64,000 bases of DNA from Chrysomallon squamiferum (taxonomy: Eukaryota > Animalia > Mollusca). The stretch spans positions 33,294,001 to 33,358,000 of the forward strand of contig CM022671.1 in assembly GCA_012295275.1 (NCBI GenBank), written 5' to 3'. The position numbers were made by a program, and so were the translations under genes. This document shows positions 1,753-47,865 of this stretch, in pieces. The notes beneath the pieces were generated by a model that searched no databases, had not been told where the DNA came from, and saw nothing but the letters and a program-made list of their open reading frames with translations. Positions within the stretch are counted from its first letter, which is position 1. Each line of letters opens with the position of its first letter.

Positions 1753-1787
1753 ATTCATTCATTCATTCATTCATTCATTCATTCATT
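1753..1787. repeat. (ATTC)n microsatellite
   Basis: Directly visible tetranucleotide run. Confidence 0.9.
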
Positions 1788-2358: not shown

Positions 2359-2398
<40 letters not shown>

Positions 2399-4516: not shown

Positions 4517-4552
<36 letters not shown>

Positions 4553-6063: not shown

Positions 6064-6097
<34 letters not shown>

Positions 6098-6883: not shown

Positions 6884-7002
<119 letters not shown>

Positions 7003-9451
7003 TTTATTTCATACTGGTCATTTTCCTTGTTTTGCAGCAGGCTGGCTTGTATGTTTCTTACCTCTTGGTCCAATCATGTCAAAATCAACATTTGAGTCAA
7101 AATATTTTCACTGATAAGCTAGAAAAACATTGTCTGAAATATTGTTAACCAGCATGTTGTTGATAAACAAAAGATGATATTATCCAGACCACACACTAAA
7201 GATATCAGTTTGGTCAACAGAGCCCTGTGGCTTCCTTACCTGAGCTGGTTGCTGAGAAAATGTTATCACTAACAATTCAATAAATAATGTATAAATTGTC
7301 TTAAAAACATGTTTAATCTTATTTGCCATTTTTAAAATTTTTGTATCATCATTTTTACACAGACAACCTGTTAATAACAACAGTTATATCCAACATATAC
7401 AGACATGAGTGTGAACTGAATGCTGTTGTTTTTTAAATTATTTTTTTACACAGAATTCAGAATATAAATTTAAAGTTTAGCTAGCCTAACTGGCAATACA
7501 TTGGATTTTCCATACACTATTACTTCCTGTAAAATGAAAATATGGTGGACGTTTTTAAGAAGGGAAAGAGAAACCTTAAAATAATAATAATAAGAAGAAG
7601 AAGAAGAAGAAAGAAAAAGTAGCCATCAACATAGAATATTTATTCAAACAATCCCTAAATCAAAATTTTAAATGAATACACCCAGCTGAGAAAAATCACT
7701 ACAATAATAAACTATGATAGTTGTAGAACAAAGAATTTCACAATAAAAGAAGAAAAGAAAATATATACTTTCACTAAAATATAAAACAGATGTTTTCATC
7801 TACTTCCAGCAGCTAGAAGAAGAATACAAAAAACAACAGAAAGACTGGGAATGTCTTGTTTTCATAACAGGTGTCACTACAGTTTCTCTTTGAGGTAAGC
7901 CCTGTGACAGGTGTATGGTACAGGTATCAGCAGCAATCAAGAGGTAAACTGCAGATTCAATCGCAGACAGGAAAGCAGTGTATCGTTTCAAATCTCAATA
8001 CAATACAGCACAACTGTTCTGAATACAGCAGTATGGCTGTAGTTGTACATATCTGATCATTAAATCTAAATCAAAATATTCTTTAACTAAGTCATTTCCC
8101 TGTGAACAGAGGAAGCAGAGGATCAAGACTAATAGAAAGGTTTTATATATATATATATATTTATGACATTAACATCAACAGAAAAGCAGCACTAAATTCC
8201 TTCTAATTTTAAGCATATTTGATTATACATAGAATACCTCTTGATAATTTCAGTGTGTTTGTCTCTCTGTGACTCTCATATTTACTGTTATATTTGTCTC
8301 ACTGTCAGAGTTATAAAAGTTAAAATTAAAAAAATAATTTAAAAACAGGAAAAAAAGGTTTTTTTAAGGGCCATATAATACTTTTAATTCTTTACCAGCA
8401 GGGTCACTACATAAATTACAAACATCTACACCTGTTTAACATTTATACACAAGAGTAAAAATCTCATAACTTATTTCTGGCTATACATCTAAGTGCATTC
8501 TCTTCCATTCATAAAACAAATAAAGTATCTGAACATTTACTACTCTAATAACTATCACAAGCAGGCTACATTTAGTAACAATCATCACCAGTTTACACTG
8601 TCTATAATACAGTAAGAACTATTTTAAAAGGCCATAACAGTTCCCAGAATATTTCAGTGACCAAGAAACTGACTGGAACCACTGAGGAATCTGAAGCAAC
8701 ATATAATGGGATGTGTTCTGAACTTTATAGCTATAATGACCATCAGCCTAAACAGTTTTCTTTGAAGAATATCTCAGGATGAAGAATGCAGTAGTAAGTT
8801 ATATTTATTTTAAGTATTTCCCTTTGTTGTACAAGCATAAGCTCAGTCACAACAAGGCACTGCACTGTATTAAAGAAAAACCTTAAGCCTGCCACAAAGT
8901 TCATTGAATTTTATGATACATAAAAATATATATCCAAAAAATTATATAATTTATATGATAGACAAGGTAAGTTATAAAAGAAAAATGAAAAAAAAAAAAA
9001 GAAGAGAGTTAAGCCGCATGATATTTTTATGATATCAATTTAACCTTAAGAATAAAAAAACAATTAACAGGTTGGTGCAGACCTTGCTAATTAATGTCTT
9101 TTCTTAATTTTATTTTTTTGCATACAGAAATTTTAGTTTTTTATTGTTGGACAATAACCAGAAATAGTTCTATAAAACAAAACATTCAAATAGGTGTCCT
9201 GGCATGAGTCCCTTAAATAAGAAAAAGGTTTTCTTAAAAGTAAGTAAAATATTATAAAAACAAAGAGAGAAGGAAGACAAAGAAAAAGTAAAGAAAAAGA
9301 GAGAAATCTTTCCTTTTAAATAAAAACCATAATCAACTGCAAAATACTTATTTATACAATCAAGAAGAAACAATGATGGGTTTTTAGTAATCAAAATGTT
9401 ATTATTCAGTCTATTCTCTCCTGAATTATTTTCTTACCTCAAAAATATATG

Positions 9452-9497
<46 letters not shown>

Positions 9498-10396
9498 TAA
9501 TAAATAAATAAAAATAGAAATAAAAATAACAAAATATAATAATAACAAAATATTAATTTCACTAAACAAAATATGCTGTCACAGTCATAATAAATATCAT
9601 TATAAAAATATAAAAGTATTCACCTGATGCTGCTAGCTGGCTTTGAACATATACAAGTAACTGGTGAAATCATCTTCAAGCTGGCTTTGTCAGTTTTAAT
9701 CATAATAAAAGTGTCTCAATTTGATCTTGTACAGGAATTTCAGCACAAGATGTAAATATTAAACAAAGAGTTATTATTACAAACAGAAACCAAATATATA
9801 AATAACTCCTATTATTTGATATCTAAAGTTTTCTGATGAGGTGTTTTCATCACAGAACTCATATATGCTTAAAATATATCATTAATCATCCAAGTAAAAA
9901 CAATTCAATTAAAAAATGCAGTGCTCTAGAAACAGGGAAACATCACCAGACAGGAAAAAGTCTCCACACCTGTCGTTCCTATCTGTAACAGGCAAAGACT
10001 GAATGCAGACAAGTCACAACAACATAATATAGCCATAACCTGTTACCTACATGATACAAAGACATTAAAACAACCACAAACCTTAGTCATATCTCTATCA
10101 ACAGTACAGAATCATCAGTTAAAATGCTATCAAGTGTATTTCTCCCAAGATACCAAGGACACTTATGATCTAACTGGGATGATTTTATTCCTTTCTATAG
10201 ATAGTTCTGAGGGACTTGAATTAGTACAATGTGACTATAAAAATTATTCCAATCCGCAGACAATGACAATGTGGCCAGTGATGTCTCAAACTTCAGCTTC
10301 CAAGGTTACCCAGCAACAAAGGTTATAATGATTACTTCAGTGCAGACACAACACACAAGAATACAGTACACACACAACACACAAACACACACACAC

Positions 10397-10438
<42 letters not shown>

Positions 10439-10934
10439 TTACTATTTTTTGCTTCACAGAAAGGAATTTCTATTAAACTAACAGGCATTATCATAGGGGT
10501 AAAAAAATGGAAATAAATAAAAAGAAAACAAAGTTGCTTTTGAATCAATAAAACAATCAGATGTACAAATGGTGTACCAAACCATTGGCTGGAATAGGAA
10601 ATAAGCCCACAGAGACATTAAGAGGACTGAATTTACAATAAATGTTTGTTCAGTGAGATTCCACTAATTATCATTAAACGCTAATAAAATGAATACTATA
10701 TGAAACTCAGATTTATATTAAACTGATATAGTTAATCCTTTTAGATAGCTATATCATTAAAACAACAATTCATAGTTTATTACAAAGGATACTTTTAAGT
10801 CAAAGAAAATATTGTTTAAAGACAACATATTTAACCAGTTGTTGCTCCTTTCCAAAGCCATATATTATTTTTATATACTATCAGGAGAGAATGTACCAGT
10901 ATTTAAAATAATTCAGAGCCTGTGTCCTGCAGTT

Positions 10935-11060
10935 GGTGTATCAACGGCCATGGTATGTGCTTTCCTGTCTAAGGAAAGGTGAATGTACAGGTGTTGCTAA
11001 TTGATAAGAAAAGCAGCTTTTGATAAAAATCCCAATGATTTAAATAACAGTAAGGTATGT
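10935..11060 (+). mobile_element. Degenerate fragment of a dispersed SINE-like repeat
   Basis: TGGTATGTGCTTTCCTGTCT (~10951-10970) is the approximate reverse complement of AGACATAGGAGGCACATACCAC (~14295-14316). Resembles a gastropod SINE body recalled from memory, not searched. Confidence 0.5.
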
Positions 11061-13609
11061 AAAATAAAAATACCTTTCCTCCTTTTAATACATAGCTATA
11101 ATCATTAAAATTTGAGATTAATAGACATAAAGTTTTACTGCATCGAGAACTACAGACAAAAGAAATTCTTCAAAGCTTTCTCTTTCTCCCTCTTGCTGTG
11201 TAAATCTAGAATCAAGATGTATAAAGAAGTATTTAGACATTATTATCAAGCTATATATTCACTATCTCTGTCCAGGAAACTGCTCACATTTCTGTATCCT
11301 GCTCACCCCACAAAACAGATGTTTTATTTTATTGCCTGCAGAAGTATTGAGTGTGTCAGGAGTGTGCCAAATGGCTTGTGCAAAACTGGAGCTGAGCTAG
11401 TTCCTGTCCATGGTTGCCAACACCTTAGCAGGTGCAAAAACTGCATCTCTCTCTAAGTGAGTTTTTTTACTCATGAATGAATTATTAATATTTGCAAACT
11501 AATTATTTCTTAGAGTAATATTTCTAAATTCAGAAAAATTTGAAGGGTTTCCAAAAACACATTATCAACACAATAAAATGTTCAAGTGTTTTATTACTTA
11601 AATAATAAATAAATAACTACATACATACATACATACATTCATACATTCATACATTCATACATACATACATAAATAAATAAAAAAATAAATAAAATAAAAT
11701 AAAAACAATTTAAAAAGTTTTAAACCAGAAAATATGAAAAGAATGAAACAGTTGTATTCTTCTGGACCTTTGTATCTTATCACTATCAGTCATCCCTCTT
11801 TCCATCATCTTAGATGTTAAGAACAAAGACACCAGACTTAGCTGTATCTTGATTAATAACTGTTTCTAGGACATTTTTTTAATTACTAATTAAATTACTG
11901 TAATCAATTTTTGTTTTTTTGTTTGCTTTCTATATATACATGATGCTAACAGGAAATAACCAATCCTCCTAGATAAATAAATCAGGCAAGACATATTCAA
12001 TCCAAATTTTTAAAACAAATTCTATGAATCCCTGACAGATGCTGTGCACAGTAGCATATGATGGTATGATTTCTTAAATTACAACATTCCACAGAACGTT
12101 TACTTCTCACTGCTTGCAGATAATAATTGGAGGGAAGTCAACTCAGAAAAGTTACACATATAATCTACCACTGTTCTTTTATGTTAATTGGTCACTGTCC
12201 CTAGGAACAAACTTATAGGAGAAATTTACTCAGCTGATTAACTCATGAGCTGTTCCACATAACATAGAACACATTTAACTGATTCTGTTAATGTAATCCT
12301 GGTTGTAGGAAGGCTCACAGGTGGAACATTTATTTCACCTGCTGCTTTCTAGTAATTGCACTAGAAGCAATTTGTCTGCTTTGATAAAGGATGACACGAA
12401 TGATGAGACTTTTTTCAAAAATATCTTTTCTCAGCATCTGTAATTAATTATAAATTTGTCACAAATTCTTTGCATTCTAAACTATACATGTTGTTTGCAA
12501 TCAGTTTGTTTATTTTACTCCCCAAGAGGTTGGCAATAAAGACTAGTACTGTTGCATACATAATATATTACACATGCTGACTGATGCTCAAAGGATGCCC
12601 AAACTATTTATCATATACATACTGAGTGCAAAGATTGATATTCTCCAGTCTGCTCTAACAACACATATTAAATGCTATTTCATTAAATTTTAAATGAATG
12701 TTTGGTTATCATCAAGTCATAATTAAGAAGATGATAATGACAAAAATTCTTTAGTGAGAAGTTTTATTGTATTTTGTGATGTATTATTTTTAGTTTTTTT
12801 TTTTTTTTTTTTAATTCCTTTTTTAAGCCATCTGTTGCTCTGATATCAGACTAAGTACAATCCAATGGAGAACCAAGATTCCATACTACAAGTTATCTTT
12901 TTTTTTCATTTACCTAAGCAAAACAGCAATGTGAGTGACTGTAAATCTAAGGTAAATAACAAAACAAAACATTGAGATACCTAAACAACATACAGCAATC
13001 TAACAATTACAGTATCATCCATTTGTGGAATTGTAGAAAATTGCTACAAATTACTACATATAATGAAAAGCAAAGAGTGGCACCTAGTACTCTGAATTCC
13101 ACAACTATAACACAGACAAACACATCAGCACATATCATCTAACTCCTCACAAACAGTCAGCACACATCAGAAAGTTTTGCCATCAATCCTGAATGGCGTA
13201 ACCGTAAGGAAATTCCACCATATATTCTTGCATATAAATGACAGTGCAATTATTCCAGCACAAAGTCTTGCCAGCTCAAACTGTCAGCTAATGTAAGAAG
13301 TTTGCCAAAGCTGAACATATTTCTCTTTGAGAATACCTATCTTCCAGCAATTTTCAGTGAAAACAAAAAAAAAAAAAAACGTAAGAAAAAAAGAAAAAAT
13401 CCTTTTCACAAAAGGTGCAAAAACCTATTCCACACCATAAACCAGTTTATTTACCTTTTATTGACAGTTCAATATGAACAGTATATCCTGTTTTTGAAGT
13501 TCTAGCTGCAAAGAAGAAAGTTTATCTCTATGATATCCATTACTGGAATGTTTTTAAACAAAGAAAATTACTTTTATTTATTTTTTACCTCATTTGTCAA
13601 CAATTTATC

Positions 13610-13613
<4 letters not shown>

Positions 13614-13665
<52 letters not shown>
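13614..13665. repeat. (AAT)n microsatellite; similar runs at ~2360, 9460, 15873, 19090, 20629, 52719 (as TTA), 56395, 63295
   Basis: Directly visible. Confidence 0.95.
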
Positions 13666-13666
<1 letters not shown>

Positions 13667-14151
13667 TAAATAAAAAATAAAAAAATAAAAATAAGACAGA
13701 ACTTTAATAGATTCTTAAAACCAGTTTTGCTTTTTTCCTGTCAGTTATATATCAGAAATAATATTTTATGAACAGAATCATTCCTAATGCACTTCATGAA
13801 ATAAACAAGTATAGTGATGATTTCTTTTAATCAAGTGTATGGATATTTTAAAAAATATCATACTGTATTGAACATCTATTTCTTGAAGTTCCACATACCT
13901 CTATGTTGAATTATCTCTAGAACACTCACCCATTTAGTAAGTAAGTCAAATGATAAAGAGTTTCAGTACAAATGATCTCCTTCATCTACACCTCTAACCC
14001 ATAAAACTACTTTGAGCTACAATAAACGTGTTTATCCAATTTGATCAGTTTGAACTGATCAGAAAAGAAAACAGCTTTCTGACACATGTTGTGTTCTAAC
14101 TACCTTTTAAACAGTGGAACAATAGAGATAGAGCACTGAAATCTAAACAAG

Positions 14152-14320
14152 ATTTTGTTTAACGACACCACTAGAAGAACCTGATTAATTTTTCATCATT
14201 GGATATTTCATGCAGTATTATTAATTTATAGTCTTAGAAGAGCATGCACAATACTTTTCTATTTACAGCAAAGAAACTCTTAGATGCCTTTCTCAGACAT
14301 AGGAGGCACATACCACAACT
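14152..14320 (-). mobile_element. Degenerate SINE-like repeat copy (3' part)
   Basis: TTTGTTTAACGACACCACTAGA...TATAGTCTTAGA...AGCAAAG...GCACATACCAC; shares blocks with the copies at ~10935 and ~49430. Family recognition is from memory. Confidence 0.55.
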
Positions 14321-15872
14321 ACTGAAAATGAAGATTAAAGTATTCACAAGAATGAGAAATAGTTCAATGAACACAGAATTTAAATATTCAGAGATTATTT
14401 AAAAATTTTATATATTTAAAAGCCTCCTCCTTATTCTTCTTCTTATTATTTAATATATTTATAACACATTTAAGGAACTCAGCTTATATGCTACAAAATA
14501 TCAAAGATGAACACCATCACTGTGCATATGTTACCCATACACTGAAATATTCACGCCTATCAGACAGTCTTTTACACAGATGTGCACATTTTAACAACAA
14601 TCTCTGAGAACTGTCCACATGTCAGGATCAAAGGGTTTTACCAAACCTTCTGCCAGCAACATCCGTTTTTTTTTCACAACAGTTTGTCTTATGATGTATG
14701 ATTCAACACCCAAGCACAAAATAAAATGCTCAGGATATATCTTGTAAAAAGTTTAAAAAAAGATGTTCAAGAAAAACAAACATTATTTCTAAAAACAAAT
14801 ATGTATACAGATGGCTCTATATATGATATTATGGTTCAACATTATGAACTAAAAACAAAATTCTACTTAGAAGAAAGAGAAGAAGAAATAACTATCACTA
14901 AAACAAAAATAATAAAGAAACAAAAGAAAATAATAGTCACATTAAAATGTTCTCTTTATAACTAATTACAAAAGAGTGTATATATATACAGGAATTAGAA
15001 ATCAAAAGCTTCATATAAGTATTATGTTAAAGAAAGAGTAATAATGATGGATGATGTGTGGGAAGAGTGTGCAAGACATAAAGAAAGAAAATGTAGGATG
15101 AAAAAAGGAGGAAAAGGAGAGAGGAAGAATGAAATCAAGATTAAAAAACAACAAAGAAACAAAACCAACCATACACATTCACCAACTTTTAAGTATTTTT
15201 TAAATCATGAAATATTTCTTTTTATCTAATGTCCTATAAAGCAACACAAAACAAAGGGAGATGGAAAAAAACTAAAAAATGTTATGGGCTTCATAGTGGA
15301 TTAAGTACATGTTCAGTTAAATGAAACTTCTACTTTTTATAGTCAGATACACAAAAGGCTATCTTAAAGTCAGACAATGGGAAGAATGTAACTTGTCATA
15401 TCTATATGCATACACTCTGTAAATATGACTTTATTACAGGTTGGTCACATGATTCATGTTTAATAGTAAGTACAAGTCTATTTTAATGGATTTCCATAAC
15501 ATAAAAATGCCACAAATACCATTCAATGCCTCTGTCCTGCCAGGCTGTGTTCATTTGCAAATATATTTTAAGCACATATAAGTGTCACAAAAGTATTTGT
15601 TGACATGGGTTTTCTTCAAATGTTGCAACTAGATGAAAGCTGTTATTGATATTAACAAAGTACATGAATTTCCACTTTGGAAATTAAATAAAATAAATGT
15701 TGGATTGTCTGTAAATCACTGAATACTGATGTAACAGAAATACTCTCAAAGAATTATAAGACCAATAGTTAAAGGCTAGTAAGTGATATACTATATCCAA
15801 TTTGTAATTTGTTTCAAAATCTATAATATATTCAAATACGTTACTGTATATCAATGTATTTGTAAATGAAAG

Positions 15873-15915
<43 letters not shown>

Positions 15916-16414
15916 TAATGCAACAAAAGATTGTTGCAAGAATTGTGGAATGTTATTATCAAAAAAAAAAACCATCAGTTTCTACAATATATATAAATTT
16001 AAACAAAAAATTACAGTTTTAATTATTTTATTCATAACAAAAGTGATGTAATTACAGAATGATATTTTCATCAAATATCTCAAGTTGTGGAAGCTATTAT
16101 GTTTTTGTAATAAACATCAATTTCTACATAATAATAGTAATAATAAAATAAATGAATAACTTAATTATTTAAAGTTTTCTGTAAATTAAGATTCAATAAA
16201 CTAATTAAACTTTTTATTCTGACTTCCAAGATGTGACGTTGGTTAATGTTATGAATGGACCTTTTCTCCTTCTGTGCTTTAATCAAACTGTCACCAGTGT
16301 CAATGAATGACACAGCAGGGGCCTTTTATATATTATATAATTTATGACATGTAACCTGTTATAGAGAGCCTTGGTACATACATTTATATTCAATGGGAAA
16401 TGAATAATGTATAT

Positions 16415-17977
16415 ACTTCTTATATATGTATTTATTTATTTCACTTATTTATTTGATTTTATTAAAAAAAAATCACTTTTTAAAACCTTGATGTCAGCAA
16501 TATATAAACTAAGTAATATTCAGGTAAATAATAATAGTATACAAATCTAAGTATATTAATTTCCATACATTTTACATTTTGCTGAATAAAAGTTAGATGT
16601 GGAATTTCAGTAATGTACACATTTTAAAACTCTATACTGAAAGTTTTTCTAAATTTAAATGCATTATGATAAAGGAAGATGGGCTTCTATATTAATGTCA
16701 AAATTTGAGACTAATAGGATTCAAAATTTATTCCAACTGACATCCTTAAACCTATCTTAGTCATATTAATAAAATGATTAGATATGGATTTTGTGAAAAT
16801 GAAAATTATGTATTGGCAATGGGCTGAATGCTAAATTCAACCAGTACTCATTGAATGATGTACCACATACTGTATTATCAGAAATATTCACATAAAAGAT
16901 TCCTTGAAGTTATCTGGTGCATATATAAACAACAGAATAATAACAGCAAATTGTTTTTTGTCTTTTTCATTTTTAATTTTATTTAAGAATTTGTCATTAC
17001 AAAACTGTAACTCAGTAGATCACATATTTGTTACACAGAAACTGTGGTTCTGTCAAAAAAAATACTTCTTTACAGCACAAGAACAAGGTACTTAGTGCCC
17101 CAGTTGAACTGTTTGAAGCTTTCTTTCTGTTTTATTGAAGTTTGTCCAAACATTACAGTGTTGGTACCTCAACTGGTCATGAATTGGGATTACTAGATTT
17201 GATATGTTCATTCATTCTAAACAACTATTAAAAATGCCCTAATACCAGTCTGCAATAAAAACCCATTGAAAAGACTGAAGAACATGTAGCACTCATAAAT
17301 AAAAGCAACACTAAATATATAAATATATCTGCACCATTGAGAAACGTGTCATAAAACTGTATTATATTAACAAGCTGCCATGTTTTACCACACACAGTAG
17401 ACACAGGTGTCTTGGCACCAGTATAATCCTTACCTGTCACACCACTTAATATTTAATATTTACATAACTTGCCCAAGCCAGAAAAACAACATATGCTTCA
17501 CACTTGGTCGAGCCACCTAATGACTTAATCAACCATGAAAATAAGTAAATAACAATCATAAGCTTTCTAGCCTAAGTTGATAACTATAATCATTCTTGCT
17601 CTCCCACCTTTCTCCATATCAATTTCCAGTCTTAGCAGCTGTTTCTGCTATCATGTTTCAGCATTTATAACTGTCCACAAGTCACTGGGATTTTATCACT
17701 TCTTAATCAACCCCTTTTCTCCCTTCTACACATACTTATCCTTACCAGTATAGTTCAGTTATATTGTTAAAAGATACAGCTTTTTGGGACATTTTTTTTA
17801 TTTATTTATTTATTTATTTTGTTTTGTCTTTTTAAAGGCATTATTTAATACTTAATTAAATTATAAAACTGAAGATGATGTTTCTTTTGTTTTAAATATG
17901 ATTTAATATTCAGAGCTAAATCTTGAAACACACAAAAATACAATACTCATTCTATTACCATACAGAAGTTTGGAAAT

Positions 17978-18019
<42 letters not shown>

Positions 18020-18117
18020 CTTATATATGTATAAACCTTGATGTCAGCAATATATAAACTAAGTAATATTCAGGTAAATAACAATAGTATACAAATCTAA
18101 TGATATATTTCCATACA
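16415..18117 (+). repeat. Dispersed direct duplication: 16415-16431 plus 16483-16550 copied to 18016-18100
   Basis: The 68-bp block AAACCTTGATGTCAGC...ACAAATCTAA occurs twice, 1550 bp apart, with one mismatch. Confidence 0.95.
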
Positions 18118-18812
18118 GAAGATTAGAACTGCACAAACACATACACACACACACAAATGCACACACATATATAACATAGCCTAATTGTACATATAATTAT
18201 ATTATATAAATGCATGTGTGCATATAAACACATTCACATATGATAAATTGACAAATATATTTAAACAATCAAAATGTGCAAAATTCATTAATAATTCTAT
18301 TTGAGTATTATTATTATTACAAACATTCCCCCCCCCATTTACACACAGGCATGTTTTCTATTGCTGTTATCAAGGATCTCCCTCAATTTATTATAGCAAT
18401 TTTTTATTCACAGCTTATGCTTCTTGACAACAACAAAGCTATTCAGTTTGTGCCTTGAACTTAAATCTTTAAAACCATGACCATGTTTTAGACATGCCAT
18501 ACCACACAATGTTAAATCAATTATACACTAGAACGATCTATATAACTGATTAATTAATCCAGTATGATTTGGATTTCCTTATTAAAATGCTTTTTATTCT
18601 AATATTTTTGTGTTTCTAGAATTTGTTATTGTTGAGATTATTGTTTCTTGCTGTTTTGTCTTTTTGTTTGTTTTTTGTTGAATTCTTTTAGTGCTATTAT
18701 ATAAATGTCTAAATATGCTGATGTTATTTGGTGATAATATATTTATGTCAATTATGTGAATATTTTCAAGGTTACTTCACGAGTGATGCTTAATATTTTT
18801 GTTATGTTCATC

Positions 18813-18907
18813 ACCTACCTTAACAACAGACTTTTAAAATATTTTGGAATAGTTCTTCATTTCTAATATAAACTTACCTGAAATAGAAAGAAAAACAAAC
18901 ATTAGTA
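18813..18907 (-). promoter_or_regulatory. Candidate recursive splice site (ratchet point) with 59-nt cryptic exon 18877-18819
   Basis: Minus strand reads TACTAAT-GTTTGTTTTTCTTTCTATTT-CAG|GTAAGT: branch-point-like motif, pyrimidine tract and acceptor fused to a perfect donor. A second donor AAG|GTAGGT lies 59 nt downstream. Confidence 0.7.
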
Positions 18908-20628
18908 TTATTTTCATGCTGAAACATAACACCAAAAATGTGAAATAATATATTTTTTTTAAAGCTAAACATTGTTTTGTTTTTCCTTTATGCAGTAGAA
19001 TGTATAATGTGTATTTCCATATTTGGAATGTGCAATGACTATAGGCCTATTTTTTAATTTTGAATTTAAATTAAAGAGCTCAGTTTAAATAATAATAATA
19101 ATAATAAATAATAATAATAATAATAATAATAAATGCTTTAAATTTTAGAAAAGAATAGACAAAAGTTTAAAAATGAACCATATTTTTTCTATAAAAGATT
19201 TTTTTTTTTTCAAGTGACCTCAAAATGATTACAGTATCAGAAATGAGATACATTATAAAGAACAACAATAGTGCTCAACCAAGTTATTAAATCATTCTCA
19301 GACTGTTTCATCATTCCTGCATTGTCTACAGGACTGCCACTCTTGCATATATACTTGCTTGAATGAAGTTCCATCAACATAAAGGGAAAAATAAATCTCA
19401 AATAGCTGGTAGGTCTCAACAAGCTATGATCAAATGTACCTTTTAGCTATACTGTCATTAGTGTGACACTCCAAACCAGACTTTATGTGGCTTATTTTAC
19501 TGTGAATATTAACACAAGAGAGATTTCTATTTAATCTTTCCTACTTAAATTTGCTGTGAAAACAGAGTTTGTTGAATAAAAACAAACATTTTTGAAAAAC
19601 AGAATAGAGAGAGAGAGAGCTAGAGATTATACATTATATTCAGAGTAATTCAATTTATACATTGATATTTTCTTAATGATACAACTTAACAGTTTACCAC
19701 TACTGAAATAATGTTTAAGTTAAGTTTTTAAAGGAAATCCACTGATTATAATGAAAAGCATACTTTATTTTTATGGAAGGTGTGACAGTTGCATTTTGTT
19801 TCAGAATTACAAACATGACAATCAATGAATAAATAATAAAGATACAGAAATAAAATTGATGGACAAATTAATGGTTTCTGAAATAATACAACACAATTAA
19901 CCATGTTCAGTCTTTCAGCAGCATTCACAACAAGCACATCAAAAGATCTTTGTATGAAATCCTGTTATAAAGACAAAACCATATACCATGACTACAATTA
20001 TTATTTTTCTTTTTTTTTGTACAGTTAAATAAATAAACAAACCTGATACAACTAAGAATGAAAAGATGATTCACCCCAAGAAGTGATAGTGAACAACTGT
20101 TTTATTCATCAATAACCTACACTATGGGAGAAAATTTGTGATTCAGGGCAACAGGTGAAAGATGGTGTGAGGAACAATCGACTTGCAACAAGTTTGCCAT
20201 TACTGGCACATGTCATGGGGCTAATGATGAAAGGTGAATACCAGCAAACACTGAAAGCTGAAGACAGAAACATTGCACAAACACTGTTAAACCGTTTCAC
20301 TGAACAAACTGTTTATAAAGCATTGGCAAACTCTACACATTATTTGCTCAATAATTGGTGTTATGAAAATACTTATTTTACTCATTTTCCAAATACAGCA
20401 TCTCCAACACAGTACCCACAAAAACAAAAGGAAATAAGAAATATAAAAATTTAAAATATATATTTTAATGTTTATACATTTTCTGGGGATTATAATTAAA
20501 ACACACATGCACACACAAACACACACACAAGCACACACATAACACACACACACACACACACACACATACAAAGAGACGAATGACTATGAAACTCCAAATG
20601 ATATATAGTGATACTGACCCTTTCTTTA

Positions 20629-20666
<38 letters not shown>

Positions 20667-21501
20667 TAACAATAATAATAATAATAATAAAACAAGAAGA
20701 AGAATTAGAAGGAATACTTTTTAAATGTTTCTTTATTAAAAGGAATTTATGTTACATGAATATTGGCTAAAAATCTACTTGAATTATTTTGTTAAAATAA
20801 AAAAATTAATGAAGACCAAGAAATTTCCTGGAGTAATCTGCATTTTCTTTTAGAATGGCTCTTCTATTTATTTAAGTTATAAAACACAGAACTGGAGGTA
20901 AAAACTAAATATTTCTATCCTGTAGGTATAAAAGATATGAAATTATTTAAATATAACTAATGAAAATGAAAAATGACATTATCTGTCAGGGACCTTACTT
21001 CAAAGAATGCAACTGTACTGCATAATCTTTTAACAGTAGATTTATTTGCTGGGAGTGCATTTATCTGTGTTTACATTATCACTGATATATATATATTTGC
21101 GTCCTTTAATGAACCATCCAAATCACTGCAGCTCCTTATAAGGATCACTAATTATAATGTATGACTTTTTATCACTATTATTTTTGACATATTTTATAGC
21201 ATCAGTCAAGATGATGAATAACTGCAGCAACATGGTTAATATTCTTCATTTTAATGGCATTAAATATTTTTTAACATTCTTTCTAAATCCACACATTCAA
21301 AAAGACAATGAAAAACATTTTTTAAAAATAATTAAGAGAGAAAAAGAGAGTGTGGGTGTGTGAAATGTTATTAAACACTGAAGTGAAACTTCTACAAGCT
21401 ACTGCCATTTACAAAACATTATATGGAAACGTAGAAAAATTAAAATAAAAGTATTGTAAAGATATTTTAAAAATGATTTTCTGTATATATATATATATAT
21501 A

Positions 21502-21635
21502 TTTATATTAGGAAAATCAAATACCTTGATGGTTTTTCAATGTTTATTCCATTGGTATTTTCTGAATTTTCTTGTGAAAACACCAATGGAATAAACACTG
21601 AAAAACCATCAAGGTTTTGTTTTTCCTATTATAAA
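21502..21635. repeat. Near-perfect ~134-bp palindrome/hairpin (palindromic MITE remnant or hairpin RNA)
   Basis: Arms 21502-21562 and 21576-21635: ACCTTGATGGTTTTTCAaTGTTTATTCCATTGGTaTTTTC pairs with GAAAAcACCAATGGAATAAACAcTGAAAAACCATCAAGGT; ~13-nt loop; TA-GGAAAA...TTTTCC-TA near the ends. Confidence 0.92.
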
Positions 21636-21666
21636 GTAGCCTACTTAATGCTACAAAAAGTTTATA

Positions 21667-21701
<35 letters not shown>

Positions 21702-22383
21702 ACAAAAAAGACAAAAATATAAAAATAAAATAAAATTAATATTTAGATATAATAAAATATATCTCCCCAAGATACACCAAAATTCCTTTACAGCAAACTG
21801 AACCAGGTTGCTAAATTATATACTGAAAAATGAAAATTTTGAAAAATGTCTTTATGATTATCATCCTGTAATCCCAAGGGTGTGTATATCCTTAAACACA
21901 GTCCACGAATACCCAGAGACACCAGATGAACTCAATTTGCAACCAAAAGTTCTTCCAAACAACTATTCTTCAAATATGGAATTTGGTTGTCCCAGGGGTT
22001 CACAGGGTTTTTCAGACTTAATATCAAAGAGCAAGTTGGAGTCAACATCTGTATATAAGCTCTGTATGAAGGTGACTGTACTCCCTTCCTTCAATAAACA
22101 GGAGATAAATTAGGTCTGGAATATCATTCTCAGCTCTGTTTATACAAAAAGGACATGCAGACATGACTTCTCAATGTGGCTTGGAAGGAAAAACTTCATA
22201 ATGTTGAACAACAATCTAATGATATGTGCCTTTAATGATTTTGTTAATTAAGCCTCATGCAATGAAAACAATGTTTACAGATGATGGAGTTTAAGATGCA
22301 GATTTCAGTTGTAAATATGTTTTCCAATAAAACATCTATTTGCTGGTTTGTGTCATAACTGCTACACTTTTTATATGAAATAA

Positions 22384-22420
<37 letters not shown>

Positions 22421-22653
22421 GAAAAAAAAGTATAATAAAATAACAAAACAATAACAAACAAAACAACAACAAAAAAACCCAACAAAAATATAAAAAGTGT
22501 TCTGTCAGTAAAACATCATAATGTTGTGATAGTAATAATTTAATCATCATATATAATGAACCAAAAAGAATAAAAAAGGGATAATAAATAAAAAGATTCT
22601 GGAAAATGTTGTTATCAACAAACTGTTGTGTATGTGTGCACAATTCAATATCT

Positions 22654-22655
<2 letters not shown>

Positions 22656-22695
<40 letters not shown>
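22656..22695. repeat. (TG)n/(CA)n microsatellite; similar runs at ~10370, 17979, 20500, 21668, 31424, 47799, 49250, 53860, 62954
   Basis: Directly visible. Confidence 0.95.
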
Positions 22696-22697
<2 letters not shown>

Positions 22698-25600
22698 ACC
22701 TATATATAGACAAGTGTCCATATATATTGTATGTTTTCAGTTTAACATCAGTCCTTTAACTATATATTCATAGAGGGAAGTGGAAAAAGAAAAAAAAAAA
22801 GATTTTGCAAGACAGTGAACTTTCTCTTGTGCTCAGTAAACCATCATAAAACTGACAGGTTAGCTGTCATGTCAGTTGAAATTCAAGCCAGTGTAGCAAA
22901 TGATTTTACAACACCAGACATGATCTTCTGGCTCTTCCCCTGCAGGGATGAGGTTCACCTCAGATGTCAGAAGAACACACCAGGTGACAGGTTGTGAGTT
23001 AATATCAGTGACATGTTGTAACAAGATTTCTATACAACATCCTGTGAGGCAAAAAGTGAATTTTGAATATATATATATACTCACTAACAAATTCAGTACA
23101 AAAACTGGCCTAAGAAAAAGACCAATATTAAATTATAATTAAATTATAAAAGAAACAATAAATAAATAAATGCAATAAACAAAAAAATCACGAAAAAACC
23201 CCAAGAATCTTGCATGTTCTGTGATGGTGACATAAAAAATTCTGAATTTTTGAATATATAAATGTTAGTGAATAATGTTTTTTTCAAACTGAATTTATAT
23301 TTAGATAAACAAGCCCTTCTCCAGTATTCCCTTAAATGGATGTTTTAAATATTTGTAGCTGTAACATTATCTGAATATAACTAAGTTTAGTTATAAACAA
23401 AATAAAACAATAAAACTAATAAATAAATAAAAACAAATGAAAAAATTCAAAAAATAGACAGTCTAACCAATGAAATCACATTTTTCCATTTTTATTTTGA
23501 AAATAACCCCCCACCAAAAACCAAACAATTTTGCATACCAAAGATTATTTTTAATTACATGATTGTTATTAAGGCAAGATTCCTTGCAAAACTCTAATAG
23601 GTCATGTTGACTGTTTTTTTACTGCAATCAGATACAGTTACATTTGGACATTTTATAAATCTGTCTTTATTAGCATTTAATATTATTAACTACTGCTTTT
23701 TTGACATAAAAAGTTAAACTTTTTCCTTCATTGTTTTGTCTAGCAAATTTACTTCAAAGCACAGAAAATCCCAAAACTGGCTCTATGTTATTTCAACTTA
23801 ATTTGTATGCCTATATTCAAAACAAAGATCAAGGCATCAGCCCGGGTTCATATTAGCATTTTCAATTCCAATCTACAATCTGCTTCTATATATAATATCA
23901 GCCAAATAATCTGCTCCTACATTTAACATACACATCCTTTCCAATCCATTCCCACAAAAATCACCATCTACACCCATCCACATCAGTTCACAGAGACCTA
24001 TCATTAACACCCTCCCCCAATATATTCTAACTGAAAATGCTATTAACAGCACTCCCCCATCTGCTTTAACAGACACACCATAAAACTGTATAATATAAAC
24101 ATGTTCTTCGAAGCAAACTCTGATGAATGGAGCCTGGTAACTTTGATCTACGGTTAGATCAGAAGGTAGGAAACCCACAAACAAAAAAAAAGGAACCTGG
24201 AATAACAGTAGATTGTTCTGTTGTTGAGCACCAGGCCTGAACTTCTGTCATGTAATTGCTCTTGGCAGTTGCATTTACTACTCAGTTTTAAGAATTACAG
24301 CATGATTTTGTTGAAATGCAATATGTTGAGAGCTATAATCTGTGTTTACAAAACAACATGGGAAGGGATAATCTCACTGGCTATTCTTTAATCTTCAACC
24401 ATCAGTTTTTATGAGCATCAGGAATAGCAATTATATTTTATAGCTATTTGCAGTGTGGTCTAAACATAATGTAAAATTTAAAGCCTGATTTGTTACTTTA
24501 AACCTAATAATAAGTTTAGATGTAAGATAAATTTTAAATTAAAATTTCAGAGGTAAGATAGCTGGGCTAATCCTTTAATAATTTTTTCTTGTCTTTTAAA
24601 TGTGTATCTGAAACATTTTAAACAGGTATTGAGTAGACCATCCCTTTAAAGTTAAGTATAATTATTACAAAAATAGTATGAATAAAGTAAAAAAATAAAA
24701 TAATAAAATCTTTACTTTTTTATTTCACTAGAAAACTTTATAAAGACTTTATAACCTGCATTTAAGTTATTTTTATTTTAAGAAAGCTGAACAAATCAAG
24801 ACAAAACAAACAAAAACATTTAAAAAAGGTGTATGTGCTGAAGTAATTTATGTTGTCAAAGTATAGTGACTGGTTAGATATTTTGTAATTCAAATATAAT
24901 TTTACATATCTTTTGGATAATATATAAGTTTTAAAACTTCTCATTTCAATCCATGCACATTTTATACACCATAACGGTTTTCAAATGGAATACATAACCA
25001 TTGTCATTTATTGTTGTTTTTTTTGTTGTTTTTTTTAAATAGAAGACATTGTTAAAGTGATTATTTTCATAAAGTGAACCAAGTGAGAAAATCTCTATCA
25101 TTAACATTTTCCTTGCATTAGGGATGCTTTAAAAAATATATATTTAAAAATAAAAAAATTAAAAAGACCTGGTCAAGCCAGTTTGTTCATATGAGCACAG
25201 CAAGAAACATCAATTTACTTTCCACAATAACCAGCCAAGCTTCATCATTTAATGTCACCATTTATCGCTGGGGTTGACTTAAGGATTCAAGGGCATTATT
25301 CAATCACAACCAATCAAATCAAAGGTGACAAAGTTCTATCCAATCATCAACATTCATTGCTCTCATGGTTTCAGATTAAATACAGGATCATATAATTGAA
25401 GGAAATTTTCATTAGTCAATTTTTATAATCAGTAAAAAAGAAAATCTGGGACACTTTATTTGATCCATAGAACAGCATGTTAAAAGTAAAAGGGAATGAT
25501 AAAGCAACATACAGTTTGTCATAGTGGAGCACATTTCTCTCTCATACACACCATTATATATAATTACCATCACAACTGGAATATTCATATAAAACAATCG

Positions 25601-28600
25601 AAAGTATCTATGAAACAATTTATAATTTTTTTTTTTAATTTACCTGAAAATATATTTATAAAGAATTTGTGACAAAATATCTCACTAAAAATTACTATTT
25701 CAGTTTGATGAACTATAAACTTTAAATACACATTTATATGTAAGAACCTATTTGCACAGATAATTAATGTCACTAATATTTAAAGCATATTATGAATCTT
25801 GTAAAGGTGGAAGGATACATTAGTGTTTTTTTAATCCTCCAACAGATTATAAATAAAAAATGTTATTTGTTTTTTCCTTTATTATTTGTTTTCTTATATT
25901 TTTTTCAAATTCTATTTTGTTTGTTTATATCTTGTGAAACAATAAACTGTTTAATCTCTGTAGTTATTTATTTTGAAAATATACCAAAATAATTATAACT
26001 GAAACAGTCTGAATAAAAAATTGCTTCGTGCAGTTGCTATCATCATTCTTCAAAATCTGTTCTGATATTAACTTCACTCCAGCCAGTTGCAATATAGTAA
26101 GTTGCAGCTGGGATGGTAGAGTTTGGGTGGCAATTGTTCAAGAATGTGCTGTTTTATAACTCTTGTATAAACAGGGATAACCAAAGAACTTCAGATGTTT
26201 GCAATCAGGAGTAATTTTTCTTATCCAAAGTTACCTACCAAAGAAATGATGCAAATGCTGTAACAAAGGTGGAAAATGCCTAGGCGAAACAAAACTAAAT
26301 TATGGACCAGATAACTAAAGAGCAGCAGACATAAACAAAGAAAATCAAAATGATCTAAAATGCCATACAAATCAAACCCAAAATGTCTTGTACATACACA
26401 AACAGAAAATGGTGATCTAGACAAAATTACTTCAGGTGTGTACTATATGGGAAAATTTCTCTGGATTTATTTGCATGAAAATACTTACTTGAAAGCACTG
26501 TTTATTTGGAAAATTCCAAAAAGTTCAATAGTTCAATTACATTGATATGGCAGGTGAAAAAAATATAAATAATAAAAATTAAAAGTAACATTTCCATGCT
26601 CTTTAATTTGTGCTGTTAAGTATTAATATAAAGTAACTTGATATATTCTAATACATTAAAACCTAACACTATATATTCAAAAATAACTAAACTGAATATT
26701 GTTTTCAAAAGACACATTTTAAAAATAAACAAACATACATAAATATTCCAGGCTGCTCAATCAAAGAAAAATCAAAAAATAATTTCTATATATATATATA
26801 ACGATATTCCAGGAAGTTTAAAAAAGTTGATTCATTTAGAAAACAATAACTAAATGTATTCTATAGGCAGGGCAGATATAGCTTTTATTCAAACTGTTTT
26901 CTTTTCTTTTTTTGTCCAAAATTACTAAACATATTTAAATGTTACGCTGATTACTTGAATACCACATTAACTGTTACCAATTTCTGCTTACGTAGTGTTT
27001 CATAAGCATAGCAGACATACTTTTAAAAATTTTAAAAAGAAAAGATTACTAGAATATCAGATTAAACATTACTAACTTCTGCTCACCTAGCACTCTCTGG
27101 GCAGGGCAGGCATCACACTTGAAAGGCACACTGATTTGTAAAAGAAGATTGGTGCAAGATGCTGACAGAATAGTGATAAAATTTGATGGAGTCCATGATA
27201 GATTTCCATAAACTAATTTCCAGTGTTATTTGATGGTGGGAGAAGCTAAGATGGGGAGATAACTGCAGGTCACACTGATAAGACGTTTTGGGGAGTTTTA
27301 GATTTGTTTTTTTTCTCCTCCACTACTTATGTAAGTATCAGATATATCAAAATGAGGTGAACATTTATTACTGGGTCTATTTGTTGTTGTTTTTTTGTTT
27401 TTTTTTGCTTTCTTTTATCAAAAGTAATATAGTGATTACAGCTAACACTCAAAACTGAAATTGTTTAGTAAAAGAGTGCATGATTCTCCTTTTCACAATA
27501 AAAGATTGAAAACAACATTTAACAAAAGAAATTGTTATTAAAAATATTTCAAGACAGGAAAAACTAAACTCTATGGATATATAAATTGGTTAGTTTTTGA
27601 ATATATACTCAACCTCTGCAGTATTAATATCCTTTACTGATGACCTCCCATTTCTGAACAAGAAAGAAAGAAAGAAAAAAAGAAAGAAAGAAAAATGAAA
27701 AACAGACCTAAAAAGTATCTGGGATGTTGCTTTCTAAACACAAAAAATATGTTGTTATTTTCCTTTTTAATCTTCCTACATGCTTTTAACTGCTTTTAAT
27801 AACCATTAACATGAAATTAAGCATGCAGTAAATTATCCATGACCTTTATCTTTAAAACATAAACTGCCAGCCTGTGCACATAATAGGAAACGGTTAAAAT
27901 TCTACCATAGCACTCAAAACACTATTACACATGCTCTACAAATATACATGGGTACAGAGAATCTGGACAATCAGTATTTAGTTCAAAAGCATCATCTGCT
28001 TACAGACTTAAAACTCTATTAAAAGAACATCAATCTGTTTCTGCCAATATAACAATCAGTTTAATGCCATAATTCAGAAAATTCAAAGAATGTCAATTTA
28101 TCTCTGGCATAATCAGGCATCAGCTAATAAATCAAGAGAATGTTGAGGATACTCTCTTCTGACCAAGCAATCCTAGGTGGTGGAATGGCCAAATTCTACA
28201 ATTTTGCAAACCTGACTACTGAAATATTTCCTGCCTTTCAATCAACTGCAGGAAAATGAAGGTTTTTTTTTTAAAGATGGGTAAAAAGCCAAAAGGGGAT
28301 GGTGTGGAAGAAGAAGATGTGTGTCTGCTATGCTCCTAAAAGGAAAGGTATAGTTAACAAATCTTTATCATACCGTTTGCTTATCAATCTAATATATGCA
28401 TATGTGATTATAATTATATAGGCCAACATTAAGGAAAAACATTTTAATTTTTTCATCAGTTTTTAAAAGTTTTTGACATATATCTTTTATTTATTTATTT
28501 AAAAAAAAGATAATATATATTTATATGTTATAATTTAAATGGAAACTGTGCTCACTTTTTATCACTTAACATTTAAATTTATCCTAACCAGAAAAAAAAA

Positions 28601-31420
28601 AAAATATATATATAATAAAAATAATAATGAAAGTCTGTGAAAAGTTGACCTCTAGTTTACTGAAGCATCACAATCTGCTTTCCACACTTGTAAATAAATG
28701 AACCACTACAGCATTCAGCCCTATAAACTGATATCTCAGTAAAACTATCTTGTGTCACAACCAACAAAATCAAGTGCCCTACAGTGCAATTCATAGAAGC
28801 TGTCTAGCAGTGTATCTGACACTGAATAATGTGATAATGCAGAGAAAGACCCTTTAATATGTGTGCGCGTGTGTCTGGTAGGGTCAGTAGCAGCCTGTAT
28901 GTTGTTTGCTGAGCACACAAAGGGCTCTTGGGCCAACAAACCATCTGACATTCAGTAAAGTTGACAGACAGCAAAATCTGGAATAAGCCTGGAGTCTGTG
29001 TTGGTCAAATTAGAGGTTAACATGTTCTAAACACAAACGGCAACAGTCATGACCAGATATACAAATTAATACAGCAGAATAACACAAATATCAAACCGGT
29101 TATGAATAGGTTATGGAACAATGTCTTGATGGAAGGAGAGATAACTTAAAGGCAGATGGATTCAAAGAAGGATGGATGAGTTTTCATGAAGGTCTCTTTA
29201 AACCATTTGTGTACATTTTTTCCTATACAAATTTTTAATATTAGAGCCTTTAATCAAGTCAAATTGTAAAATAATTAAAATGGTAGTCAATGTTTAGAAA
29301 TGTGTGTAAAATTCAGGATGCATTCTAATTGTGTTTAACTTTAACAGATGTCTAATTTTTTTCTAGTTAAAATAATATTTTGAAAAAGATGCTGAGATCA
29401 AGTGTTACATATCCAATTCAGCAAATCATGATCACTCTGTACTTTATCAAAGCAATCCTTTCTGCTAATCGCATCTGCTAGTTGCATCTGTTGGGTTCTA
29501 GGTCTTAGAAAAATCTATGAAAGCACTATTACTTTTATTTTAATCACTACATCTGCTTTCCCCTTATATGTTTAACATATCCACATGCTGTCTGCAAAAA
29601 TAAAATGCATCAGTGGAAAGGTATATAGTTTGTTTTCAGTTTTCATTATAAACCCAGCTATGCAAATCATGTATACCTGGATTTTAAAAAACTCTGTCAT
29701 GAGAGTACTTCAATAATTAACATACAGATACACATTAAAAAACATCCAATTAGATTAGTACATATGGTAAGTCACTTTTGATGTTGTTCCAGATAGCTGA
29801 TTACAATTTTTATATTTCTTTTATTATTTTTAATTTTTTTAATACCAATCCTATAAATTCTTCTTGCAACAAAATCTGCATTGCTCACTTGTTTTATAAA
29901 GTTTTAAAAAGGTAATTAAGACAAATCAAATCTAGTGAAGAAAATCTACAAACATTTGAATCAGCAATGACTTCCTGAGTGCACTGGACCATTGCACTCC
30001 TCAACATCTGATAGGATATCATTTATAAACATTCAGCTCATACCTTTAAAAAACTGAATTCAGTCATTGTGTAGCTAATGCTTTTAAAAATCCAAATCAC
30101 ATTTTTCACTCAGTTATTTGTATGTACTCAGGACTTACAAAACTGCATTTACTTTTTCATAAGTTGTTTGTTTGACATTGAAGACTAAAAAAAAAAAAAT
30201 TCATTTTCTTTTTCACCTGAGTTATTTGTACTTACAAAGAACTGTTAAGAAACAGGATTTATTTTATTATCTTTTTTTCTTTCACCCCAGTTATTTTTAC
30301 ATATATATAATGAAAATCAATAACAGGCTTTCTTTAACAAACAAAATTTCACAAGAACACTTGTATGAAATGTACTAGGTCAACAAGAAGAAAGAAAGAA
30401 AAAAAAAAAAAAAAAAAAATATATATATCTTTCCTGGTGGCCTGATTTCTCTACTAGAATTTTAAATAATGATTTACAATGCTTTTACAAAACCACAGGT
30501 ACTGACATTTTATGTTAACTTGTTCTACTCACACCATATGGATAACAAACATAATTATTATTTAATACTTTTTAAACATTAACATTTAATATTATCCTGT
30601 CATAATATATTTTGCTTTTATAATAATTATTTTTGTTCTAAAACATCAAATTACATTTGACTAGATTTGAAAACAATATACAAACATATATGAGAAAATA
30701 CATATATATTCAAAAATAAATGTACATTTATTTATCACACACAAACACATATACTCACCAAAATTATTGTTATTAAATTTAATTTTCTTATTTTTTTAAT
30801 TTCCATTCAAGACTACTACTACCCTGGGTACACTAAAATATTTGCCTCTGCCTTTAACCTGAAGTGATTATTATGCTATCACTAACCAAATATCTATCAA
30901 GAGTCTGAGAACTGGCTATCAATTTTTTACTATTGTTATGTATTGTAATGTTGCTGTGAGAATTTTCACATGACCATGTATCCCTATTCACCAATTACAA
31001 TAATGTATCCTATGGCTGCTAACCAGATTGGATGGCATAAAGGCCATATCATTTTACAGGGTGTAAAGGCCATTCACCTTTCATAACCATCCAGCTAATT
31101 TGTTACCTGTCCCTGTAGCATGTACCACTAACAATACACTAGGTTCAAAAATAAACACATCAGTAATGTTGGCATTATGGAAATTATCATTATGGAAAGT
31201 GTGAATTTATAAATAAATTAATGTTTGTTTACTGATGCATTAACATATTTTGTTTAATTAATTATTAGGTGTCAAGTTGTTGGTGTTTATCTTAATAAGA
31301 TATATATATTTTTTTTTTTAAATTTCAAAAGTATCAAAAATAAAATAAGATCATATCACAAGAACTGCAGTCACTATTGCAAATAAGTAGTTTGTATCAT
31401 CATCAGATTTGTTTAATTTC

Positions 31421-31458
<38 letters not shown>

Positions 31459-42312: not shown

Positions 42313-42344
<32 letters not shown>

Positions 42345-46859: not shown

Positions 46860-47067
46860 TGATCTCCACGATGTAGGTCTGCAACGTAGCCCTGTAGCGG
46901 ATTGTGACCGTTATATCCACCCCGATTAATAATGGCAGTAACTTACCCCTGAATTGGGGGATTCTTCTAACTCCCCCATCATAACAGACGCTTCCCTCCT
47001 CACGCCCTGAAGGCCAAGATGTATAGGGGAATCTGACGATGCCATTTTATAAGTTATTTTCTTTCTT

Positions 47068-47098
<31 letters not shown>

Positions 47099-47750: not shown

Positions 47751-47795
47751 TTACAAGCAGTGATCGAAGCCTGCCCCTAAAAATCTACTAACTTC

Positions 47796-47865
<70 letters not shown>

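What the first reader, a model, noticed from the sequence alone, without database searches (positions are those of the whole stretch)
18813..18907. Recursive splice site with a short cryptic exon inside a giant intron
Seen (minus strand): TACTAAT branch-like motif, 20-nt T/C-rich tract, CAG immediately followed by GTAAGT (junction 18878/18877), and a second donor AAG|GTAGGT 59 nt later (18819/18818). It is the strongest acceptor I found in ~46 kb and lies ~28 kb downstream of the inferred first-exon donor (46947), on the strand independently implied by base skew. Known: this AG|GT ratchet-point plus short cryptic exon architecture defines recursive splicing in long Drosophila and vertebrate introns. 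Inference: stepwise intron removal in a probable mollusc. To my knowledge this is little characterised in lophotrochozoans.
Basis: partly seen in the sequence, partly recalled or inferred. Interest (0 to 1): 0.78.

Follow-up and report, generated by a model that had tools for sequence, protein, structure and literature searches.

The report
Likely recursive splice site, snail intron
Deep inside a more than 46,000-base intron of a snail testin/prickle-type gene sits a fused "intron end plus intron start" signal with a short decoy exon behind it, so the intron is likely cut out in steps as in fruit flies, but no RNA from the site itself was obtained to show that.

Summary
The motif is real: branch-like TACTAAT, 17/20 pyrimidines, CAG|GTAAGT at 18878/18877, and a second donor 59 nt on. 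It is the only such site in 46.3 kb of sense intron, with none antisense. Simulation expects about 0.02 per intron, or 1 in 1,500 with the second donor (criteria set after the fact).

RNA contigs (4 of 4 runs, one study) confirm minus-strand transcription but correct the gene model. Exon 1 (donor 46947) joins a missed 86-nt coding exon 2 (46353-46268), which joins an exon outside the window. The long intron therefore starts at 46267, and the site lies 27,390 nt into it. The gene is TES-class (testin/LMCD1/prickle). The mature RNA seen skips the 59 nt, and inclusion would create an immediate stop.

This is the Drosophila ratchet-point/RS-exon layout. Its defining RNA evidence (intermediate junctions, saw-tooth, lariats) and conservation remain untested. 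I give about 0.7 that the site is used.

Paper searches found no mollusc report. This scan has already noted similar candidates in other genomes, including octopus, annelid and sea urchin. Verdict: probable new member of a known mechanism, of moderate interest.

The parts
18901..18907 (-). Branch-point-like TACTAAT; presumed branch A at 18902 (-25)
   Evidence: Sequence; role inferred
18881..18900 (-). Polypyrimidine tract, 17 of 20 T/C, no AG within 41 nt of the junction
18872..18880 (-). Candidate ratchet point CAG|GTAAGT (junction 18878/18877)
   Evidence: only such site in the 46.3-kb sense intron
18819..18877 (-). Candidate cryptic RS-exon, 59 nt, 22% GC, frame-shifting; first full codon after exon 2 would be TAA
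   Evidence: absent from the exon 2 to exon 3 join in 4 of 4 RNA runs
18813..18818 (-). Downstream donor (AAG|)GTAGGT, the best donor within 400 nt after the site
1..46267 (-). Host intron 2, longer than 46,267 nt and running off the window's low end; first segment 27,390 nt, at least 18,877 nt follow
   Evidence: loose end at 46268 in 4 of 4 runs; that sequence is not in the window; CpG o/e 0.10-0.11 throughout
46268..46353 (-). Coding exon 2 (86 nt; TES-class TMA1/TMA2 motif); its donor GAG|GTCAGT is the upstream partner of the site
46354..46946 (-). Intron 1, 593 nt, GTAAGT...CCCCAG
46947..47503 (-). Exon 1 (covered by RNA contigs up to 47503; inferred start ATG at 47045, 33 codons), in a CpG-rich promoter-like stretch

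Best explanation
The site is likely a recursive splice site (ratchet point) with a cryptic 59-nt RS-exon, which would let the >46-kb second intron of a snail TES-class (testin/LMCD1/prickle) gene be removed in at least two steps. Inferred steps: (1) the branch motif, tract and CAG, helped by exon definition across the 59 nt to AAG|GTAGGT, act as an acceptor, and exon 2 (donor 46268) is spliced to 18877, removing 27.4 kb; (2) the join rebuilds a donor, GAG|GTAAGT, closer to consensus than exon 2's own GAG|GTCAGT; (3) that donor outcompetes the one 59 nt on and is spliced to exon 3 or to a further site beyond the window, leaving nothing of the site in the mRNA; (4) any message that keeps the 59 nt has a stop at codon 63 and would be degraded. 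Shown: the motifs, strand, exon 1-2-3 joins, skipping in the RNA seen, and the stop. Not shown: steps 1-4 themselves.
For: Unique composite motif on the sense strand, none antisense or upstream. Rare in simulation: 29 of 1,500 with the perfect donor, 1 of 1,500 with branch and downstream donor. Only 2.5% of intron positions have an AG|GTRRG donor 20-120 nt downstream. The host intron and strand are shown by RNA contigs in 4 of 4 runs, and the 59 nt are absent from the exon 2 to exon 3 join. Length (59 nt against about 50), frame shift and stop match fly RS-exons (PMC8605326). In flies 63-70% of introns over 40 kb carry such sites (PMC6110457). In five invertebrates such motifs are 4 to over 20 times commoner on the sense strand (PMC2773006 Table 2). 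The rebuilt donor matches the consensus at 9 of 11 positions against 7 of 11 for the cryptic-exon donor.
Against: No intermediate junction, saw-tooth or lariat was seen, because no RNA was laid on the site. In one search the only loose end at the exon-2 donor was exon 3, with no exon 2 to 18877 join in any of 4 runs (weak: depth 5-13, and contigs drop rare forms). By duplex energy with the U1 end the cryptic-exon donor is not weaker (-11.1 against -10.7 kcal/mol), so donor competition is unresolved. The 27.4-kb first segment is longer than the 9-15 kb typical in flies, though within the 2-60 kb range. Only one strong site lies in 46 kb. Conservation and genome-wide enrichment could not be tested (no genome held). 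The chance figures are post hoc, and the window was picked for having the motif. In vertebrates such motifs are barely enriched (ratio 0.9-1.5), and no mollusc was in that study.
Confidence: 0.7

Rival explanations
1. A chance, unused motif in a T-rich sense strand; the intron is removed in one step.
For: Loose versions arise about 0.08 times per 46 kb and the perfect-donor version about 0.02 times, and very many windows were screened. The antisense background in other animals is about 0.07-0.12 per 100 kb. No RNA use was observed. The only join seen is exon 2 to exon 3.
Against: Four separate features coincide with fly-like spacing (1 of 1,500 simulations). It is the single best acceptor by my score and faces the transcribed strand.
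Confidence: 0.17
2. A real but rarely included poison exon: the 59 nt are spliced in as a cassette in some tissues to lower expression by nonsense-mediated decay, with little re-splicing at the internal GTAAGT.
For: Strong acceptor and a good downstream donor, equal by U1 duplex energy. Frame shift and immediate stop. Decay would hide it from shallow contigs.
Against: A cassette exon has no need to start with a perfect GTAAGT. The segment is 22% GC, like the intron (29%) and unlike exon 2 (48%). In flies such exons are recognised and then skipped.
Confidence: 0.09
3. A 5'UTR exon of a shorter isoform that starts at a promoter inside the intron.
For: It has both splice signals. Alternative starts are known for prickle genes (recalled, not from a call).
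Against: No 600-nt window wholly inside 1-46,800 reaches 14 CpG, and CpG o/e is 0.10-0.11 on both sides of the site against about 0.95 at the real promoter and upstream. The frame that would join exon 3 has stops and no ATG after them.
Confidence: 0.04

Closest known systems
Drosophila intronic ratchet points with cryptic RS-exons (Ubx, kuz RP1/RP2, Bx; PMC8605326, parts 1-2 of 6 read; PMC6110457, abstract, Results and passages read)
   Same: Fused AG|GT with a strong acceptor inside a >40-kb intron; short (about 50-nt) out-of-frame cryptic exon closed by a second donor; skipped in mRNA; located in coding sequence like kuz, where inclusion would destroy the frame.
   Different: Fly sites are shown by junction reads, saw-tooth coverage, lariats, mutants and conservation, none of which is shown here. 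The first segment (27.4 kb) is longer than the typical 9-15 kb. The host is a gastropod.
Vertebrate RS-sites with RS-exons (Sibley 2015 and Zhang 2018, seen only as described in PMC8605326 and in passages of PMC8758631)
   Same: Exon-definition layout; RS-exon with intron-like GC content and a premature stop; low inclusion.
   Different: Fully skipped sites are few in vertebrates (nine noted definitively, per PMC8605326), and the motif is hardly enriched there (PMC2773006). The rate in molluscs is unknown.
Computed RP-site enrichment in sea urchin, mosquito, bee and beetle (PMC2773006, abstract and passages incl. Table 2)
   Same: Sequence-only evidence for recursive sites in long invertebrate introns.
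   Different: That evidence is genome-wide, and it includes no lophotrochozoan. Here there is one site.
TES class of LIM proteins (testin, LMCD1, PRICKLE3, Etes/limpet; PMC3305314, passages and rows of supplementary files 4-5)
   Same: Exon 2 and the start of the next exon read C-P-G-F-G-L-H-Y-W-R-K-I-C-R-H-C-K-C-P, like the TMA2 rows, preceded by a TMA1-like stretch (compared by eye).
   Different: The PET and LIM domains lie outside the window, so the subfamily is not settled. The fly prickle and espinas names and ids (recalled) were not found in the 9 supplementary files of PMC6110457, so no shared site in a fly counterpart is shown.

Membership tests
Ratchet point with cryptic RS-exon (Drosophila type) | Strong 3' splice site directly fused to a consensus 5' splice site (AG|GT) | tested here: met
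   branch motif, 17/20 tract, CAG|GTAAGT
Ratchet point with cryptic RS-exon (Drosophila type) | On the sense strand of a very long intron | tested here: met
   intron starts at 46267 on the minus strand and leaves the window (>46 kb)
Ratchet point with cryptic RS-exon (Drosophila type) | Second donor a short way downstream (about 50 nt) | tested here: met
   59 nt; 2.5% of intron positions have such a donor 20-120 nt on
Ratchet point with cryptic RS-exon (Drosophila type) | Cryptic exon out of frame and absent from mature mRNA | tested here: met
   Stop at codon 63 if included; skipped form seen in 4 of 4 runs of one study. Rare inclusion is not excluded.
Ratchet point with cryptic RS-exon (Drosophila type) | Rebuilt donor stronger than the RS-exon donor | tested here: inconclusive
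   9 against 7 of 11 consensus matches, but -10.7 against -11.1 kcal/mol by duplex energy; no trained splice-site scorer was available
Ratchet point with cryptic RS-exon (Drosophila type) | Intermediate junction reads from the upstream donor to the site | not tested
   No RNA laid on the site; from the exon-2 side only the exon-3 join was seen, in shallow contigs that drop rare forms
Ratchet point with cryptic RS-exon (Drosophila type) | Saw-tooth coverage and segment lariats | not testable with these tools
   All five runs found are kept as contigs, which cannot show levels
Ratchet point with cryptic RS-exon (Drosophila type) | Conservation of the AG|GT core; genome-wide sense enrichment | not testable with these tools
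   No genome held; no related locus found
Ratchet point with cryptic RS-exon (Drosophila type) | Position near the intron midpoint or even spacing (segments typically 9-15 kb) | tested here: inconclusive
   First segment 27.4 kb; the intron's end is outside the window
TES-class LIM protein (host gene) | TMA1 and TMA2 motifs at the N-terminus | tested here: met
   plus the loose end read by hand, compared by eye with the motif rows
TES-class LIM protein (host gene) | PET domain and LIM domains | not testable with these tools
   Outside the window; Pfam, PDB and homologue searches with the short exons gave nothing usable

The most novel reading that the evidence does not exclude
Gastropods remove long introns by fly-style, exon-defined recursive splicing. 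That would place the mechanism in Lophotrochozoa as well as in insects and deuterostomes, making it likely ancestral to bilaterians. At this site the ratchet would also upgrade exon 2's weak donor (GTCAGT) to a near-perfect one (GTAAGT) for the remaining long-range step, with the 59-nt exon doubling as a built-in poison switch for a testin/prickle gene.
Probability: 0.5. Interest if true: 0.55.

Novelty: new member of a known kind. Interest (0 to 1): 0.38.

Why it matters
Recursive splicing has RNA-level proof in flies and vertebrates and computed support in other insects and sea urchin. My searches found no paper reporting it in molluscs or lophotrochozoans (most subscription papers are not in the library). 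A confirmed snail site would fill the third bilaterian branch and date the exon-defined mechanism. This case is cheap to test, because the partner donor is now known from RNA (46268) and one RT-PCR decides it. It is not a new mechanism, and the scan already holds better-powered genome-wide candidates in cephalopods.

Tried and rejected
The whole genome was not available, so there is no genome-wide sense/antisense count. RNA coverage of the site itself was not obtained.

Naming the host gene by search failed. The exon-1 peptide gave one short, 32%-identical match in an unnamed 711-aa protein, which I discarded. The exon-2 frame found no candidates among longer proteins, nothing in PDB sequences, nothing in Pfam, no Atlas result, and no confirmed locus among 587 pattern matches in metagenome contigs. 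The queries included intron read-through residues. The family call rests on a by-eye match to published motif rows.

Rfam found 0 matches in 14000-48000. The site is in no tandem repeat and in none of the listed repeat families (20 of 24 direct families and 25 of 88 inverted pairs shown). Repeats elsewhere in the genome were not checked. The loose ends at 46236 and 46526 rest on 18-22-nt matches and were set aside as spurious.

Paper searches: searches gave 0 papers. Searches gave 1 and 2 unrelated listings. One search was swamped by papers lacking the splicing term (30 of 7,238 listed, none with it). One search listed 9 papers, none on molluscs by title and abstract start. Look-ups of earlier scan notes near this place, in this genome, by sequence and for gastropods showed nothing on this site.

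Full report
Observation. On the minus strand the window reads TACTAAT (18907-18901), a 20-nt tract with 17 pyrimidines, CAG|GTAAGT at 18878/18877 and AAG|GTAGGT at 18819/18818, exactly as reported. Of 8 minus-strand and 6 plus-strand AG|GTRAG matches in the window, this one has the richest tract. In the 46,267-nt sense intron, 11 YAG sites have at least 17 of 20 pyrimidines, and only this one also has a CTAAY branch motif. It is also the only one of 42 sites with at least 15 pyrimidines that is followed by GTRAG. The antisense strand and both strands of the 16 kb upstream have none. A 4th-order Markov model trained on the intron with the site removed gave, in 1,500 simulated introns, 119 loose sites, 29 with the perfect donor and 1 with perfect donor, branch motif and downstream donor. 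These criteria were set after seeing the site and the window was chosen for it, so they overstate the rarity, but the composite is still hard to get by chance.

Host gene. One search found five runs: four RNA runs of one study and one of unknown kind. I laid the four RNA runs on 44200-47790. The joints table listed none, so the joins are read from the table of pieces. In each of 4 runs one contig carries 46947-47047 directly next to 46268-46353, then continues with the same loose end, which does not occur in the window. So exon 1 (donor 46947) joins an 86-nt exon 2 across a 593-nt intron, and exon 2 (donor GAG|GTCAGT) joins an exon beyond the low end of the window. The long intron starts at 46267 and exceeds 46 kb, and the site lies 27,390 nt into it. 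Two independent signs agree. Strand skew appears only below the promoter, and CpG o/e falls from about 0.95 upstream to 0.10-0.11 on both sides of the site, with no CpG-rich patch inside the intron. I read that as a methylated gene body without an internal promoter (inference from general knowledge of invertebrate methylation). Exon 2 encodes IPKVQSVALGKPCSNCKDQCPGFGLHYW, and the loose end, read by hand, continues R-K-I-C-R-H-C-K-C-P. This matches by eye the TMA1/TMA2 motif rows of TES-class LIM proteins (testin, LMCD1, PRICKLE3) in a supplement of PMC3305314. Database searches with these short exons failed, so the subfamily is open. A neighbouring receptor gene is 65% identical to a Gigantopelta aegis protein, so the animal is very probably a gastropod.

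The 59-nt segment. The mature RNA seen goes from exon 2 straight to exon 3 in 4 of 4 runs, so the segment is not a constitutive exon. The runs are shallow (depth 5-13), come from one study and are contigs that drop rare forms, so occasional inclusion and splicing intermediates are not excluded. Exon 2 ends in phase 2, so inclusion makes the first full codon TAA, at residue 63. The segment is 22% GC, against 29% for the intron and 48% for exon 2. Splicing exon 2 to the site would rebuild GAG|GTAAGT: 9 of 11 consensus matches and -10.7 kcal/mol against the U1 end (recalled motif), compared with 7 of 11 and -7.4 for exon 2's own donor and 7 of 11 and -11.1 for the cryptic-exon donor. The rebuilt donor clearly beats the native one. 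Whether it beats the downstream donor depends on the measure; the energy counts a G-U pair in full.

Mechanism. Most likely (0.7) this is a ratchet point with an RS-exon. The 59 nt are defined as an exon, exon 2 is spliced to 18877, the rebuilt donor is used for the next step, and nothing is left in the mRNA. This is the model established for fly Bx and kuz, where the cryptic exon is about 50 nt, usually out of frame, and included once the ratchet donor is weakened (PMC8605326, parts 1-2 read). In fly S2 cells 63-70% of introns over 40 kb have such sites, with segments typically of 9-15 kb (PMC6110457, Results read). The 27-kb first segment here is long but within the 2-60 kb range quoted in a review (PMC8758631, passages). 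Computed enrichment over the antisense strand is 4- to over 20-fold in four insects and sea urchin and 0.9-1.5 in vertebrates, and no lophotrochozoan was studied (PMC2773006, passages). The rivals are a chance motif (0.17), a regulated poison exon (0.09) and a UTR exon of an internal-promoter isoform (0.04). No RNA at the site, no genome and no orthologous DNA were obtained, so the defining tests (intermediate junction, saw-tooth, lariat, conservation, genome-wide enrichment) remain open. It works like a fly ratchet point by layout; membership is not proven.

Novelty. Full-text searches for recursive splicing with mollusc, mollus- or lophotrochozoa gave 0, 2 (unrelated by title and abstract start) and 0 papers, and 'ratchet point' with 'intron' listed 9, none on molluscs. 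The library lacks most subscription papers. The scan's own notes hold 38 findings with these words in at least 7 genomes, including octopus, other cephalopod, annelid and sea-urchin candidates. They are unchecked AI notes, and I do not count them as support. None concerns this site or this genome. This is therefore a probable new member of a known mechanism in a group where I found no published report. Its particular value is that RNA fixes the partner donor and shows skipping, which reduces the test to one RT-PCR. Interest 0.38.

Noticed in passing
window 57708-59018 (-): Single open frame for a rhodopsin-family GPCR (7tm_1), 65% identical to a 'sex peptide receptor-like' protein of Gigantopelta aegis; it lies in CpG-rich DNA.
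   Followed up: partly
window 46300-47800: Sharp step in CpG o/e from about 0.95 (upstream, exon 1) through 0.67 (intron 1) to 0.10 (intron 2), which marks the gene body as clearly as RNA does.
   Followed up: partly
window 44200-44872 and 45710-45945: Intronic stretches covered by RNA contigs at depth 2-9, near the exon depth of 5-13. The libraries probably hold pre-mRNA (or DNA), so their raw reads could test the site.
   Followed up: no
window 47045-47240 (-): The 5' leader has several upstream ATGs, including a 14-codon upstream frame ending at 47193, and a long A-run just before the inferred start.
   Followed up: no
window 25644, 12914, 26235 and others (-): With relaxed criteria, weaker fused acceptor-donor motifs number 9 on the sense strand against 3 antisense. 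25644 (tttcag|GTAAAT) and 12914 are the most donor-like. This could be chance from T skew.
   Followed up: partly
window 21520-21618 and 40244-40930: A hairpin with 43-nt arms (93% complementary, 13-nt loop), 2.6 kb before the site in transcript order, and a 119-nt inverted repeat pair 449 nt apart, resembling a small transposon.
   Followed up: no
window 63598-63909 (+): Open frame with a partial CARD_2 domain (E 1.1e-07) followed by a GTAAGT at 63764: probably an exon of a plus-strand CARD-domain gene.
   Followed up: partly
window 47954-48271: 155-nt tandem duplication (98% matches) just upstream of the promoter region.
   Followed up: no
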